From Eledone cirrhosa (lineage: Eukaryota), in the NCBI GenBank assembly GCA_964016885.1, contig OZ024760.1, forward strand, positions 21,700,001 to 21,764,000: a stretch of DNA of 64,000 nucleotides. The letters run 5' to 3'. A program made the translations under genes and the position numbers. The notes under the pieces are model-generated. The model saw nothing but the letters and a program-made list of their open reading frames with translations, made no database searches and was not told where the DNA came from. Shown in pieces: positions 17,045 through 35,997 of the stretch; within the stretch, counting starts at the first letter, position 1, and each line of letters begins with the position of its first letter.

Positions 17045-17088
17045 ATATATAATATAAGATCAAAAGATGGTTAAAAGAGTTTCAAGTA

Positions 17089-17155
17089 TTTTATTATGCG
17101 CATTTCAAAAACAAATATCATCATGGGATCATATCTGCGTTCTCATCAGATAAAA
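17089..17155 (-). ncRNA. Type-I hammerhead ribozyme (left arm of inverted pair)
   Basis: Reverse complement of the 17201-17267 motif, one substitution within the motif. Confidence 0.75.
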
Positions 17156-17200
17156 TCAGATAAAATTTAATCTTTTCCTATCATTGCACAGAAAATAAAA

Positions 17201-17267
17201 TTTTATCTGATGAGAACGCAGATATCATCCCATGATGATATTTGTTTTTGAAATGCGCATAATAAAA
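17201..17267 (+). ncRNA. Type-I hammerhead ribozyme (right arm of inverted pair)
   Basis: TTTTAT-CTGATGA-GAACGCAGATATCATC..GATGATATTTGTTTTT-GAAA-TGCGCA-TA-ATAAAA; 6-bp stem I, long stem II, palindromic stem III. Confidence 0.8.
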
Positions 17268-17412
17268 TACTTGGAACTCTTTTAACCATCTTTTGATCTT
17301 ATATTATTTATACTCCAGTCCTACAAACTGTAGAGTGCTACTTATCCGATATTTGCATTACTTTATTGTGCTACAATATAACTCACCCCCTACACATATA
17401 TATATATATGCT

Positions 17413-17457
<45 letters not shown>

Positions 17458-17752
17458 CTGTATGTTTCGGAGAGAAAGTTAGGTACATGTGTACTCATGC
17501 CTAAATACAAACATGTGACTTGGGTGTTAAATTGTATAGAAATAATTTCTAGTAGCAGCAGCTGCAAACTTCCTTAGTTACTTCCCTTAGACCATAACAC
17601 TACCAAATCTTGTGCTTGTGTGTATCATGTGCACACACACTCACACGAAGCTGTGTACAGGAAGGCATATATAGGTGTGTGTGTGTATGTATGTATATAT
17701 ATATTTTCAGCCCCATGGATTTTATCTATTACATTCACGTATTATATTTCGA

Positions 17753-17810
17753 ATACCTGATGATATCACCGGATTCATACGGAACCCGGTCATTGAAATG
17801 ATCATAGTAT
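17753..17810 (+). ncRNA. Hammerhead ribozyme motif, partly decayed
   Basis: ATAC-CTGATGA-..ACCGG..CCGGT..-GAAA-TGATCA-TA-GTAT, immediately followed by AATAAA. Confidence 0.6.
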
Positions 17811-17863
17811 AATAAACCTTTCAAGGATTTACACAAATCCAGCCTCCTGTCATTTCAAAACAT

Positions 17864-18602: not shown

Positions 18603-18886
18603 GTGTATTATATATATATATATGCCACAAAGTGACCCGTTGCAAAACACGTATATGTATATATATGTATATATATATATGTAAACTTTTATATGTAATA
18701 ATCTCCCATTAGGTTGAGATACAAATTTGGCTGTATTGTGCTGTGCTTTCTAGCAAAAATGCCACCAGTCATAAGCAACTACCACACTCCTTCCAACCTG
18801 ACCGCGACTACGTCACGATTTTTAGCCATTTTGAATGAATTCTTGGCGCAATCACTTTGGAAAATTTAATGTCTAGATAAGAGCAA

Positions 18887-18974
18887 ACTTCCTGATGAAT
18901 CCGGTGCTCGAGTTTATATAATTATTACATAATTATTGGAAAACTCAAAATACGGATGAAACCATGGTAGAGGT
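18887..18974 (+). ncRNA. Type-I hammerhead ribozyme
   Basis: ACTTC-CTGATGA-ATCCG..(GAGTTT..ATAATTAT/ATAATTAT..AAACTC)..CGGAT-GAAA-CCATGG-TA-GAGGT; GUA cleavage triplet. Confidence 0.8.
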
Positions 18975-19259
18975 ATTTAAATGTATTCTATTTTCTCCTA
19001 GTTTATTTTACACCTAATTCTGTTTAGTTGACTGTATCTGGGCGATTACGCTGTCGAAATATTCGATAAATATTCCGTTGCGGCCGACACGAAGGGCTGG
19101 TTTCGGTTATTTGTCGGAGATTTCTTCATAGAAGCCTCATTCTTATAGCCTGGTCTATTTGATTTTTTATATAGTTAATTATGCTAATTGGGAGAGGAAA
19201 TGGTATATATTTTATCTTGTGATTCTATAGACATGTTTTATGATATATATATATATATA

Positions 19260-25670: not shown

Positions 25671-25696
25671 AAACTATATTTATCAAACCATATTTA

Positions 25697-25753
25697 TTTT
25701 ATTATATATATTTCAAGGGTACCAAAATTTTGGTACGCCCTCATCAGATAAAA
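25697..25753 (-). ncRNA. Type-I hammerhead ribozyme
   Basis: TTTTAT-CTGATGA-GGGCGTACCAAAATTTTGGTACCCTT-GAAA-TATATA-TA-ATAAAA; same family as 32239. Confidence 0.75.
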
Positions 25754-25799
25754 TACGACATTTGTTTTATAAATGGTGACATACCCAAGAAACCAGACC

Positions 25800-30864: not shown

Positions 30865-30952
<88 letters not shown>

Positions 30953-30960
30953 TATATATT

Positions 30961-30998
<38 letters not shown>

Positions 30999-31227
30999 AA
31001 TATATATATTTATATATAAATATATATATTTATATATATATATATATATATATACATATACACACATACATGCACACACACATATATATATATATAAATA
31101 TATATATATAGATATAAATATATATAGATATAAATATATATATATATATATATAAATATATATATTTATATATATATATATATATAAATATATATATTTA
31201 TATACATATATATATATACATATGTAC

Positions 31228-31270
<43 letters not shown>

Positions 31271-31356
31271 AGTCCCGGTTTCAATCGGAGGTAACCACAG
31301 TAAGTGAAGTATTCAATACATTACTAGAGTATATACAAAATTTAATATAAATATGG

Positions 31357-31403
31357 CTTCTACAGGACTAGAACTGTTTCATTTGAAGAAAATCATCAGG
31401 AAA
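31357..31403 (-). ncRNA. Type-I hammerhead ribozyme
   Basis: TTTC-CTGATGA-TTTTCTTCAAAT-GAAA-CAG TTCTAGTC CTG-TA-GAAG; same family as 59875. Confidence 0.65.
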
Positions 31404-31602
31404 TCATGACTCTTTTCCTATTACCCATTGCACTACTCTAAGTATTGAGTACTCTGGTGCGTTATGGTCCACCTGGTTCCTTACCACACTTTCTTTGTTA
31501 TATATATGTATATATATGTGTGGCTGACAGTTGAGAGAAAGAATTACTCAATACCGAAGAAGAGTTATAATATTCAATATTATGAAGACTACAAAAGTGA
31601 GT

Positions 31603-31674
31603 CTTGTTATTCTGGAGTTTCACCTGTTTATCACAGGGTCATCTCACAGGGTCATCTCACAGGGTCATCAGGCA
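31603..31674 (-). ncRNA. Hammerhead motif (left arm of inverted pair), stem I decayed
   Basis: Reverse complement of 31678-31738 with an extra 13-bp internal repeat. Confidence 0.55.
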
Positions 31675-31677
31675 GTC

Positions 31678-31738
31678 CTTGTCTGATGACCCTGTGAGAT
31701 AACCCTGTGATAAACAGGTGAAACTCCAGAATAACAAG
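31678..31738 (+). ncRNA. Hammerhead motif (right arm of inverted pair)
   Basis: CTTGT-CTGATGA-C CCTGT..ACAGG T-GAAA-CTCCAGAA-TA-ACAAG; perfect stem I, imperfect stem III. Confidence 0.6.
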
Positions 31739-31909
31739 ACTCACTTTCTAGTCTTCATAATATTGAATATATATAACAAGCAAATGCCTTCACTATATAT
31801 ATATATATATATATATAATACTGTAGTAAAAGTTTGTAATAAATATCCAATAGTAAGAGCACTCAGTCCATAGGATGAGTTAGAATAAATAATTACAACC
31901 GTGACATAA

Positions 31910-31959
31910 ACAGGTACTTAGGTTTCAGTGGATTATGCACACCAACTCTTTCAGACTGT
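31910..31959 (-). ncRNA. Hammerhead motif, 8-nt core variant (left arm)
   Basis: ACAGT-CTGAAAGA-GTTGG..CCACT-GAAA-CCTAAG-TA-CCTGT; paralog of 14949-14998. Confidence 0.55.
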
Positions 31960-31988
31960 CATAAGAATATGTCTTTATTATTCTTATG

Positions 31989-32038
31989 ACAGGCTGAGTG
32001 AGTTGGGGTCCAAAACCCAATGAAACTAAAGTACCTGT
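31989..32038 (+). ncRNA. Hammerhead motif, 8-nt core variant (right arm)
   Basis: ACAGG-CTGAGTGA-GTTGGG GTCCAAAA CCCAAT-GAAA-CTAAAG-TA-CCTGT; stems I and II fully paired. Confidence 0.7.
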
Positions 32039-32238
32039 ATATATAACTGACTGTTGTAACTATTTATATATATATATATATATATTAGAAAGTGAGGTTT
32101 TTTTTACAAATTGAAAAATAACCGAGGTGTCCATTACTATTGGAAGCTCCCGGATAGTCTCCCGGGAGCTTCCAACAGTAATGGTTGCATTCTTTAAGGG
32201 TATGTCAATATTTATTTATAAAACTGCTCTATATTATA

Positions 32239-32299
32239 TTTTATCTGATGAAAGCACACCATAATTTAACTTGGTGTTCTTGAAATATGTATAATGAAA
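32239..32299 (+). ncRNA. Type-I hammerhead ribozyme
   Basis: TTTTAT-CTGATGA-AAG C ACACCA..TGGTGT T CTT-GAAA-TATGTA-TA-ATGAAA. Confidence 0.75.
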
Positions 32300-32428
32300 T
32301 AAATATGGTTTTATAAATATAGTTTCCATTTGTTAATATCGTATTTTTACTCCAATTATTTGTTGAGTGCTTTATATCAGTTATAAAAATATTTGCTTGT
32401 TGTATCCCAACAATTTAAATAGAACTTT

Positions 32429-32511
<83 letters not shown>

Positions 32512-32607
32512 AAATAAATAATTCCATCGGAAAGGTCCAGGAAAAAAGAGTGCTCTATGTAGGTTACCACTGGTAAATGAAATAATTGCCTTATGTTGTT
32601 TATTACT

Positions 32608-32666
<59 letters not shown>

Positions 32667-32810
32667 CGAAGGAAATGTGGTAAGGAACCAGATGGACCAT
32701 AACGCACCAAAGTACTCAATACTTAAGGTAGTAGAGTGGGTAATAGGAACGAGTAGGACCCCGACGGCTGAGCTCAAGCCGTTTCGACGGCTAATTCTGG
32801 GGTCTTCTAA

Positions 32811-33980
32811 TTGTTAGAAGACCCCTTAACCCTGATAATGTACTCCCGCTACGTTGATGATATAAACATCGTAGTTAAAACACCCCCACTAGAGAACAGT
32901 CAGGAATTAGAGAAAAACACAATGGAAAGCATCCAGCAAATAGCTAACTCCATCCACCAGAGTATTAGAGTTACTATAGACTACCCAAGTAAACACCCCA
33001 ACCATCGATTACCTGTACTAGACACAGAGCTCTGGTTAGATACCATTAATAACAAAAAACAAATCCTCCATTCCCATTATGCCAAACCCATGACTTCCAA
33101 ATATCTGATCCACCGAAACTCAGCTGTTTCGGACCATACCAAAATCAACATACTGATTGCGGATTTGGTACGGGTGATGAGAAACGTGTCCCGCATATGC
33201 AACCCCGAAGAACTAGAGAGACACATACAAGACTTCATCCACCGTATGCAGTTCTCTGGTTACAATCAGAGAGATAAAATCAGAGTGTATAGAGGAGCCA
33301 GAACCAAATGGGAAAAAATGGTAAATAATGACACAAATGGGACCTGCCCCTTGTATAGGAGCAAATTTTGGAATAGAATAGAAAGAACTAGGAATAAGGC
33401 TAATAGAATAAACTCATGGTATGATAGCAATAAATACCAGAGTGTAATGTTCATCGATACAACCCCTAGAGGTGAATTAGCTTACAAATTTAGAAGGGCC
33501 CTAGACAAACATAAACTCAATATTAAGATAGTAGAAAGACCAGGTACCTCCGTAAAAACACTTATTAGCAAGACATACCCTTTTCAAAGACCCCCCTGTA
33601 TAGATAAGAAATGTATAACCTGTAAATTAAGCCCCCATATTAACTGTAAAACTAGAAATGTAGTATATAGCATAAGATGTACTGAAGGACAATGTAGAGA
33701 CAAAAATATAGTGTACATAGGTGATACAGCTCGTAGTGTAGGGGAACGGATAAATGAACAGTGGCGAGACCTTCAAGATAGTAAAGAATCATCTGTACTC
33801 TACCAACATGCTAAAATAGTACATAAGGTTAAATTAGAGAACATAGAAATAAAAATAGAATCTACACACAGAAAAGACGCAATGTTTAGACAAATCACAG
33901 AGGCAATAAACATAAAAAAATTACAACCAAAATTAAATAGAAAATATGAGTGGAACAGCAACATCACAACTTACAACTAA
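32811..33980 (+). mobile_element. Penelope-like retroelement, 5'-truncated ORF (RT C-terminus/thumb, Cys-rich linker, GIY-YIG endonuclease)
   Basis: RYVDD catalytic motif, LPVLD, HYAKP, CxxxxCxxC linker (CIDKKCITC), VVYSIRC..C..VYIGDTAR, conserved His and RQITEA..LN; 389 codons without a stop. Confidence 0.95.
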
Positions 33981-34085
33981 GGACAAAATGAAAACACACA
34001 CGCACATAGAACAAACAACCAACCTGTAACATGTAAATAAACAAATAAATAAACGAATATAAACACACACAGACACCCGGATGCA

Positions 34086-34332
34086 AAAGCACGGCAAAAA
34101 AGCACCCAGCCCACACTGTAAAGTGGACGTGTAGGCGCCACGAAAAAGCACCCAGCACTCACTGTAAATGAGGTTGGTGTTAGGAAGGGCATCCAGCTGT
34201 AGAAATCAAGCCAAATCAGTTCCTGTATGAGCAAGGCATGGTCAGCCGATCAGACACTGCCCACAACAGGACAACCCGTCTAACCCATGCTAGCGTGGAA
34301 GAACGGACGTAAAACGGTGATGATGATGATGA
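34086..34332 (+). mobile_element. SINE family 2, 3' portion, lying in or behind the PLE 3' UTR
   Basis: Two 49-bp-type units (AAAAAGCACCCAGC..CACTGTAAA), GTTAGGAAGGGCATCCAGC, RTE-like tail and (GAT)n. Confidence 0.9.
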
Positions 34333-34355
34333 TATATATATATATATACCCACTT

Positions 34356-34390
34356 TTCTCCTGAAGAAGGACTTATGCCCGACACGTCGC
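34356..34390 (+). ncRNA. Degenerate hammerhead motif downstream of the PLE ORF
   Basis: CTGAAGA-AGGACTTATGCCC-GACA(for GAAA)-CG-TC; AATAAA at 34424. Confidence 0.45.
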
Positions 34391-34634
34391 TCCCCACTCC
34401 CCCACACTCAAGAGCATGAAACTAATAAACCTTTTTTTGTACTGCCTCTGTTTTGTTCCCGTTCCATTTTTCACTATATATATATATATATAAATATATA
34501 TATATTGCTTTTGAAAACAGCTGGTGATATGCATGTAAGTAAATATTCTCTTTATCTTGTAACTAACCTTACATAGATCAATAATTAAGTATAGCTACAA
34601 TGTATTATCGTCATCTAGAAACGATCGTAAAGCA

Positions 34635-34711
<77 letters not shown>

Positions 34712-34714
34712 ATA

Positions 34715-34881
34715 GTCCACACTGTAAACGTGGTGGTGTTAGGAAGGGCATCCAGCCATAGAAAACCCGCCAGACAGTCCTATACGAGCAGGACAACAAA
34801 TCTTGCCTCAAGTGGGAAAACTCCCGTCCAAACCCATGCAAGCGTGGAAGATGGACGTTAAACGATGATGATGATGATGAT
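34715..34881 (+). mobile_element. SINE family 2, 3' fragment
   Basis: GGTGTTAGGAAGGGCATCCAGCC...CCCATGCAAGCGTGGAAGATGGACGTTAAACGATGATG. Confidence 0.85.
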
Positions 34882-35000
34882 ATATATTTATATATATATA
34901 TATAGAGATATATTAAAATATAAGTATTAATAAATAGATGTTCTTTTACATTTTATTATTTAATCTTAACCATTTAACATCTCAGGGTATGTCATGTATC

Positions 35001-35062
35001 ATTATATTTTGTGTGATGAGGACGTACTCTTGTACATCCGAAATATGTATAAAAAATGTAAT
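35001..35062 (+). ncRNA. Degenerate hammerhead motif (C3 to G)
   Basis: ATTATATTTTGT-GTGATGA-GGACGTAC TCTT GTACATCC-GAAA-TATGTA-TA-AAAAATGTAAT. Confidence 0.55.
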
Positions 35063-35997
35063 TGATCAAAAGAACATCTATTTTATTAATACTTACATTT
35101 TAATATTAATAACTCCTGAAAAATTTTTTTTGACCATTGAGTGCTTCCAATCTACTGTAAAACTCATTCTTTCACATAATCATCGAATATTGTTAAACAA
35201 CTTAATTATATATATATATATAATTTGGTGCTCCAGCATAACATTGTACATATAAATGTATGTATTGTATATTGAATAATATACAGGAGTTTTTATAGAA
35301 AACATTTCAAGGTCTTTTGTTGTGAATTTTTAACCTTGTTTCCAACATCATACACCCAACCTCAGCAAAAGGAAGGGGAAGTAATCGATAATGCATCATT
35401 TCTCACTCTTTTGTGTTTATCAAGACTACATATAGCTGCACTTCTGTTGAGGTTATAGCTTTTTGCTTCTGTATATGAGTTGATCAGACTCATTTGCATA
35501 CGGAGTGGTAGCCGGCCATGCTTGAATGAAACTATTTCTATTGGCGTCCAACATAGCGGAAGACACATAAATAAAGATATTGAATATTGAATAATTACAG
35601 GATGTTTATTAAAAACATTTCAGAGCCTTTCAATGCACATAGGCACACAAGGTACATACATATACCAACAGAAACCTCAAATCTATAAATGGTGCTTTTA
35701 ATTATTTAGAATCAGTGTTTAAATGAAAGAAGGATATTTTTTATGAGAGATATATAACAAGTGACAAGAAAATCTCAGGAATTCTTTCACAAATACAGCA
35801 ATGTGCTCAGAAAATAGGGAAAAGTGAAGTATTTAAATAGAAAAAAAAAAAAAAAATCCTATTTCGTTTGAAACCTAATAAAAGATTTGATTCATTCTTA
35901 TATAGTTGTTGTATGTTTTGTTAAAATATTATTTAATGGTGCTTATATCACAACTAGCCATCATAGTTGGGATATAAGCACCATTATTTAATTTGCC

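What the first reader, a model, noticed from the sequence alone, without database searches (positions are those of the whole stretch)
31270..35062. Ribozyme and Penelope hot spot: about 9 HHR motifs from several families packed around one PLE ORF
Seen: within 3.8 kb, short modules separated by (TA)n carry HHRs at 31357, 31603, 31678, 31910, 31989, 32239, 32758, 34356 and 35001. A shared ~85-bp tail lies at 31415-31500(+) and 32662-32750(-). Inference: repeated insertion into TA tracts that each insertion regenerates, giving a feed-forward nest of PLE ends and microsatellite. This may help explain the extreme microsatellite content.
Basis: partly seen in the sequence, partly recalled or inferred. 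Interest (0 to 1): 0.75.

Follow-up and report, generated by a model that had tools for sequence, protein, structure and literature searches.

The report
Penelope ribozyme ends piled in microsatellites
This stretch is a pile of cut-off, mostly broken ribozyme-bearing tail ends from about seven unrelated Penelope-type jumping-gene families that likely landed one after another in TA repeats; it is a dense but ordinary spot in a genome estimated to hold several hundred thousand such ends, and net growth of the TA repeats by the insertions is not shown.

Summary
All nine hammerhead-like motifs are there, but they are seven insertion units of seven families. Only 2 of 9 pass a strict descriptor, a third marginally. 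The others lack half the core or carry core or stem III damage. None belongs to the ORF's family: that copy stops about 100 nt before its own ribozyme. The shared tail is two copies of one Hydra-clade family. A random 1 Mb gives 255 motifs (91 intact-looking) per Mb. One of 100 regions matches the nest's density, so a few thousand such nests are expected. TA targeting is strong (75% vs 12% within 150 bp) and already published for Hydra and other PLEs. Insertions leave TA on both sides (31 of 33), and those tracts are reused at about the background rate (31 vs 28 expected). Tract splitting is therefore supported. Preference for earlier inserts and net TA synthesis are not. The scan found this system, and the conserved tail hairpin I re-derived, on other DNA of this genome before.

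The parts
31270..31403 (-). Module A: 3' end of a PLE family (likely Hydra clade); type I HHR, core at 31399, weak stems I and II
   Evidence: 4774 first-look candidates, about 92% identity; HMM hit; Hydra-type ORF 1.2 kb upstream of a related copy in L164
31405..31500 (+). Module F': tail of an older subfamily of family F, no HHR, joined 5'-to-5' to A
   Evidence: the other A copies do not carry this tail
31522..31790 (.). Module B: head-to-head pair (long arm -, short arm +); cores 31671(-) and 31683(+); both arms share private changes, including a broken stem III
   Evidence: 2045 candidates
31818..32060 (.). Module C: head-to-head pair with an 8-nt core (CUGANNGA); the arms are only 76% alike (likely two subfamilies); right arm passes the strict descriptor
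   Evidence: 1978 candidates
32086..32132 (-). Module X: short terminal piece of another family (tail of the f30 type), joined to D
32131..32430 (+). Module D: young (98%) 3' end; intact-looking HHR, core 32245; tail hairpin at 32349
   Evidence: 1976 candidates
32510..32607 (.). Module E: collapsed head-to-head remnant of family f18; HHR core deleted
32664..32800 (-). Module F: young (99-100%) 3' end of a Hydra-clade PLE; only the 3' half of its U3-A8 variant HHR; tail hairpin at 32737
   Evidence: 880 candidates
32814..34083 (+). 5'- and 3'-truncated copy of a young autonomous PLE (RT C-terminal part, CX4CxxC linker, GIY-YIG; frame open to 33980); its own HHR is missing; 32798-32813 is a short inverted copy of its start
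   Evidence: 3211 candidates, 98-99% identity
34090..34332 (+). Abundant non-HHR repeat ending in (GAT)n (RTE-type SINE/LINE end; label recalled), replacing the PLE 3' end
   Evidence: sequence; 39 matches in the random Mb
34350..34473 (+). Module G: 3' end of another family; minimal HHR with GACA for GAAA
   Evidence: 1611 candidates
34715..34880 (+). Second (GAT)n-ending repeat
34958..35205 (+). Module I: 3' end related to D; HHR with C3 changed to G at 35013
35374..35435 (-).
30873..35222 (.). Ten compound (TA)n tracts bounding the modules

Best explanation
The region is a pile of truncated 3' ends of about seven unrelated Penelope-like retrotransposon families, which likely inserted one after another into (TA)n tracts, each insertion likely splitting one tract into two that stay usable as targets. 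Shown: family membership, truncation, TA at both ends, two fixed 3' end points per family, head-to-head arms and different ages. Inferred from PLE biochemistry (PMC11167929): the GIY-YIG nuclease nicks both strands of AT-rich DNA and both 3' ends are extended from one of two internal start sites on the RNA, giving a long and a short arm joined near the ribozyme, which is carried along uncleaved. Copying usually stops within 100-300 nt, so the genome fills with HHR-bearing stubs. Regional differences in tract density plus neutral splitting make an overdispersed landscape whose upper 0.4-1% looks like this nest.
For: TA proximity 75% vs 12% and 22% (n=232). Family-specific bimodal end distances. 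41 of 46 adjacent motif pairs without TA between are same-family head-to-head; an arm is closer to its partner than to the median other copy in 81 of 104 units. TA at both ends in 31 of 33 young F/D copies and after 26 of 28 ORF-family ends. Module identities 86-100%. F traced to a Hydra-type ORF. Background 255 motifs/Mb; 1 of 100 regions reaches 9 and one reaches 8 in 3.8 kb; motif count tracks tract count (rho 0.59). Different-family ends across a tract match the permutation expectation.
Against: No empty site was seen, so order and splitting are inferred. The nest holds 7 families and 0 of 100 random regions exceed 5, though the library was seeded from the nest. Dispersion stays 1.8 after conditioning on tract number. 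Young inserts have a PLE end across the tract in 23 of 90 cases (26%) against 17% (P=0.034), a weak hint of preference. The nest has three cross-family 5'-to-5' joints, while only about 1 of 255 random motifs shows a credible one (joints with HHR-less partners such as ORFs were not detectable there). 21 of 104 palindromes have arms less alike than the family median.
Confidence: 0.82

Rival explanations
1. Strong feed-forward: each insertion adds new (TA)n (target duplication, or repeat addition by the telomerase-related RT) and/or makes neighbouring tracts better targets, so PLEs drive the genome's TA content.
For: TA at both ends in 31 of 33; left+right median 65 exceeds a randomly picked tract (29; P=0.002); 317 of 1081 tracts, about 30% of TA bases, abut a PLE end; 23 of 90 far-side PLE ends.
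Against: Once both halves must be detectable the expected sum is 52 (37-81), which contains 65; per-base targeting predicts 142 or more; left and right lengths are uncorrelated (rho 0.16, P=0.38), against whole-tract duplication; no different-family excess; a duplicate of 31215-31945 differs in tract length (36 vs 24 bp) without any insertion.
Confidence: 0.2
2. A locus-specific hot spot (open chromatin, fragile palindromes, or co-insertion of several RNAs at one break) produced the nest, including the cross-family joints.
For: Seven families, above all 100 random regions; three cross-family joints, the F/ORF joint using the same GGGGTC microhomology as F's own fold-backs; the A-F'-B-C block was itself copied 155 kb away.
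Against: Ages differ; 20 stretches from the surrounding megabase hold 0-11 motifs per 10 kb, like the genome; a negative-binomial fit expects about 3,300 windows with 9 or more; insertion with deletion of the neighbour explains the joints equally well.
Confidence: 0.15
3. The nest is one composite element or retrozyme-like unit built around, and mobilised by, the ORF.
For: Proximity; the inverted tail pair.
Against: 29 of 29 other ORF-family loci have different flanks and run on into their own HHR; each module occurs alone elsewhere; no tandem monomers; the flanks are single-copy.
Confidence: 0.03

Closest known systems
Hydra clade of C-terminal EN+ Penelope-like elements, incl. Hydra-1_Obim of Octopus (Craig et al. 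2021, PMC8557442; sections 6, 11, 12, passages, supplement parts 52-54 and searches read)
   Same: Parent of F has the Hydra RT motifs, CxCX5C linker, CxxC and CxH; canonical HHR; (TA)n insertion; inverted 5'-truncated copy; one-sided tail.
   Different: Tails here are about 60-110 nt rather than 30-40; copies are mostly 100-300-nt stubs in very large numbers; a conserved bulged hairpin in the tail is not mentioned in the main text ('hairpin' 0 hits).
Minimal HHRs of metazoan PLEs (Cervera and de la Pena 2014, PMC4209133; parts 1-2 of 4 read)
   Same: Type I motifs with short palindromic helix III, U3-A8 variant, dual motifs on opposite strands 100-700 bp apart, most as solo remnants of truncated PLEs.
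   Different: Numbers: about 195,000-357,000 strict motifs estimated here against 2,000-9,000 min-HHRs there and 126,247 in axolotl (PMC7229834, passages); the descriptors differ.
Poseidon_Ac in vitro mechanism (Frangieh et al. 2024, PMC11167929; parts 1-2 of 4 read)
   Same: Both strands nicked and extended at AT-rich DNA, two internal RT start sites giving the tail, HHR cleavage not needed.
   Different: Other clade; target ATT rather than (TA)n; no nests analysed.
Penelope insertion architecture in Adineta vaga (Arkhipova et al. 2013, PMC3846280; passages read)
   Same: Head-to-head inverted pLTRs with palindromic junctions, microhomology 5' joints, secondary insertion of one family into another.
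   Different: Low copy number; explained there by self-priming; microsatellites not mentioned.
Animal non-LTR retrozymes (PMC7229834 passages; bioRxiv 10.64898/2026.07.22.740005 part 1 of 5)
   Same: Non-coding, type I HHR, linked to PLEs.
   Different: Retrozymes are tandem monomers cut HHR to HHR; the nest modules are single or inverted ends.

Membership tests
EN+ Penelope-like element (ORF family) | Single ORF with RT and C-terminal GIY-YIG endonuclease | tested here: met
   Open frame of 1257 aa stop to stop in L276 with RT motifs and YIGE; homologues carry PF00078 or PF01541; Pfam itself gave no RT or EN hit on the query
EN+ Penelope-like element (ORF family) | HHR in the pLTR, two 3' ends (tail), inverted 5'-truncated copies | tested here: met
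   Met in other copies; the window copy has lost its pLTR
Neptune or Nematis clade (ORF family) | CX2-5CxxC linker plus CCHH; no insertion between RT3 and RT4 | tested here: inconclusive
   Linker and CCHH present, short linker like Nematis in Fig. S2, but RT3-RT4 spans 148 aa against about 80 in Fig. S1; no tree built, so not filed
Hydra clade (family F) | CxCX5C linker, no CCHH, CxxC and CxH round the conserved E and N | tested here: met
   L278 and L279 translations compared by eye with section 11 and Fig. S7
Hydra clade (family F) | (TA)n insertion and HHR | tested here: met
Hydra clade (families A, B, C, D, E, I) | Linked Hydra-type ORF | tested here: inconclusive
   Hydra-type fragments 0.7-1.4 kb upstream of A- and D-type HHRs in single loci; B, C, E and I only share the tail hairpin with F
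Type I hammerhead ribozyme | Complete core and three helices | tested here: met
   Met for 2 of 9 (D, right arm of C), marginal for A, not met for the other six window copies
Type I hammerhead ribozyme | Self-cleavage | not testable with these tools
   No assay
Non-LTR retrozyme | Tandem HHR-to-HHR monomers | tested here: not met
   No such array in 31270-35062

The most novel reading that the evidence does not exclude
In this octopod genome (TA)n and Penelope-like elements form a self-feeding system at unprecedented scale: 0.6-0.9 million ribozyme-derived stubs, about one TA tract in five created by an insertion, and the telomerase-related RT or its repair step adding net (TA)n at each priming end, with a bulged tail hairpin conserved from coral to octopus setting the RT start sites of Hydra elements.
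Probability: 0.2. Interest if true: 0.7.

Novelty: new member of a known kind. Interest (0 to 1): 0.35.

Why it matters
The locus is ordinary for this genome, but it gave a quantitative test. PLE ends touch at least 29% of TA tracts, and neutral tract splitting explains the nests without any preference or proven regrowth. The estimated 195,000-357,000 intact-looking hammerheads would exceed the largest count I read (126,247 in axolotl). Thousands of 98-100% identical young copies make the question of whether PLE insertion creates microsatellite directly testable with empty alleles.

Tried and rejected
Rfam: no hammerhead among 23 matches in the region or the 150 of 415 listed for the window. 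Pfam: nothing significant on the ORFs; PDB: one weak GIY-YIG hit (E 0.47); the protein atlas could not read the sequence. Empty sites: the near-identical copy at C21:21576169-21576901 is a 733-bp duplicate of modules A to mid-C inside a duplicated LINE end, not an empty site; the flanks have no second copy; contigs and RAD reads piled on repeats and showed no usable joint; no RNA holder listed. A pattern search for a CUGANGA core upstream of F gave 49 heterogeneous junctions, not a parent; the parent core proved to be U3-A8. My first structure string was two columns off (corrected). Most of the 9 cross-family joints called looked like library contamination on inspection; one was credible. MFE folding was uninformative: 2 of 10 motifs had z below -2. 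Literature searches; none listed a paper on HHR-PLE nests in cephalopod (TA)n or on the tail hairpin; one search was too loose to count. The O. vulgaris repeat paper (PMC13282606, passages) has no 'ribozyme' hit. Supplements of the bioRxiv retrozyme preprint were not seen and might list cephalopods.

Full report
Setting. The window is C21:21700001-21764000 of a 3.0-Gb assembly. The closest named protein to the ORF family is from Octopus vulgaris (69% identity), so the host is probably an octopod.

Observation. Rfam finds no hammerhead. A strict type I descriptor passes 2 of the 9 claimed motifs. A library of 53 family profiles, 6 dropped as likely look-alikes, recovers all nine and a tenth at 35374-35435; it gave 0 hits on shuffled DNA. 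Compared with relatives, A has weakened stems, both B arms share a stem III break, C has an 8-nt core typical of its family, F is cut inside stem II and lacks its U3-A8 core half, G has GACA for GAAA and I has lost C3. B and C are head-to-head pairs, so nine motifs are seven units. The shared tail is two copies of family F; other A copies lack it.

The ORF. It matches a young family from 32814 to 34083 only. Other copies run on about 100 nt to their own HHR and end in (TA)n in 26 of 28 cases. A full frame exists elsewhere. The window copy is a doubly truncated passenger, not the source of the ribozymes. F belongs to another clade, Hydra.

Background. I drew 100 random 10-kb stretches from 26 contigs, within the lengths then known; C16, C25, most of C28 and unplaced contigs were not sampled. 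They hold 91 strict motifs (3 in shuffles) and 255 library motifs; bootstrap ranges scale to 195,000-357,000 and 0.6-0.9 million. Counts are overdispersed (variance 7.4, mean 2.55). The nest is far beyond Poisson, but 1 of 100 stretches has nine motifs in 3.8 kb, one has eight and one has seven units. A negative-binomial fit expects about 3,300 such windows. In family number the nest (7) exceeds all 100 (maximum 5), with the caveat that the library was seeded from it.

Relation to (TA)n. Of 232 motifs away from region edges, 75% have a tract within 150 bp on the 3' side, against 12% and 22% in controls; end distances are bimodal and family-specific. 317 of 1081 compound tracts abut a recognised PLE end, a lower bound. 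41 of 46 adjacent pairs without TA between are same-family head-to-head, and arms resemble their partner more than other copies in 81 of 104 units. This matches the published inverted copy plus one-sided tail and the two-strand, two-start chemistry of Poseidon_Ac. (TA)n preference is published for Hydra, including an Octopus family.

Feed-forward test. Tracts with PLE ends on both sides number 48 against 30.7 by genome-wide permutation, but 42.1 within regions (P=0.12); for different families 31 against 28.0 (P=0.29). Under neutral splitting the chance that the far side is a PLE end equals the overall rate (my derivation), which is what is seen. Young top-scoring copies show 23 of 90 against 17% (P=0.034), a weak excess in a non-random set. 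31 of 33 have TA at both ends; the summed length (median 65) fits an ordinary tract of 20 bp or more and left and right are uncorrelated. With 211 units and about 1,100 tracts per Mb, splitting would account for roughly one tract in five (inference). Net TA synthesis is neither shown nor excluded, since no empty site was obtained.

Tail hairpin. A bulged stem (RCUC, short stem-loop, 1-2-nt bulge, GAGY) lies in long tails of F (58 of 75), A (27 of 44), D (23 of 31), B (11 of 22), C (9 of 16) and E (4 of 4), but in 0 of 44 ORF-family and 0 of 24 G tails, and in 14 of 7340 shuffles. The short end lies 8 nt before it in 54 of 74 F arms and 7 nt before it in 21 of 32 D arms. Across 14 instances, chosen by the motif, 99% of cells pair and 4 of 7 pairs change on both sides. 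By eye, 3 of 6 published Hydra consensus sequences (coral, two sea cucumber) contain it, one nearly does and two do not. I found this before looking it up; earlier scan notes already describe it as a twin hairpin, and I did not test the second copy.

Verdict. Real motifs, known parts, mostly inactivated; a dense example of a genome-wide pattern that the scan has reported many times. Weak feed-forward fits the data; strong feed-forward stays open at about 0.2. Interest 0.35.

Noticed in passing
L112:169-901 (C21:21576169-21576901): A 733-bp copy of window 31215-31945 (94% with gaps) sits 155 kb away between a LINE 3' end and a duplicate of that LINE's last ~190 bp, with a 3-nt microhomology: a likely template-switch capture of part of the nest.
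   Followed up: partly
L276:3720-7490 (-); window 32814-33980: The ORF family has a C-terminal, Nematis-like endonuclease and a canonical HHR but an RT3-RT4 span of 148 aa (about 80 in canonical PLEs), an insertion of IFD size or more; 190 homologues at E<=1e-20. Possibly an unplaced PLE lineage.
   Followed up: partly
window 32349-32370 (+), 32712-32737 (-); many loci: Conserved bulged tail hairpin at a fixed distance from the short end in Hydra-type families, also seen in published coral and sea cucumber consensus sequences.
   Followed up: yes
window 32780-32835, 31395-31412, 32125-32135: Three cross-family 5'-to-5' joints without TA; the F/ORF joint uses the same short microhomology as F's own fold-backs.
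   Followed up: partly
one search matches, e.g. L270:1500-1535: Chimeric hammerheads: the 5' half of one family's HHR joined in the same sense to the 3' half of family F, suggesting template switching between PLE RNAs.
   Followed up: no
L185:4920-9650: Tandem array of eight 664-bp units, one HHR each (retrozyme-like).
   Followed up: no
window 17083-17275, 59823-59933, 14941-15002, 17746-17820, 18881-18983, 25689-25758: Eight further HHR-derived motifs in the window, two as head-to-head pairs.
   Followed up: partly
window 13362-14649: 27 tandem copies of a 49-bp unit from the 5' part of the (GAT)n-ending repeat also found at 34090-34332.
   Followed up: no
window 34506-34636: Unassigned 130-bp module between TA tracts; one 92% relative among held loci (L275).
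   Followed up: partly
L006, L008 (3' junctions): Young ORF-family ends followed by arrays of two letters plus (TA)n repeated 6-20 times; could be junction amplification after insertion or a pre-existing array.
   Followed up: no
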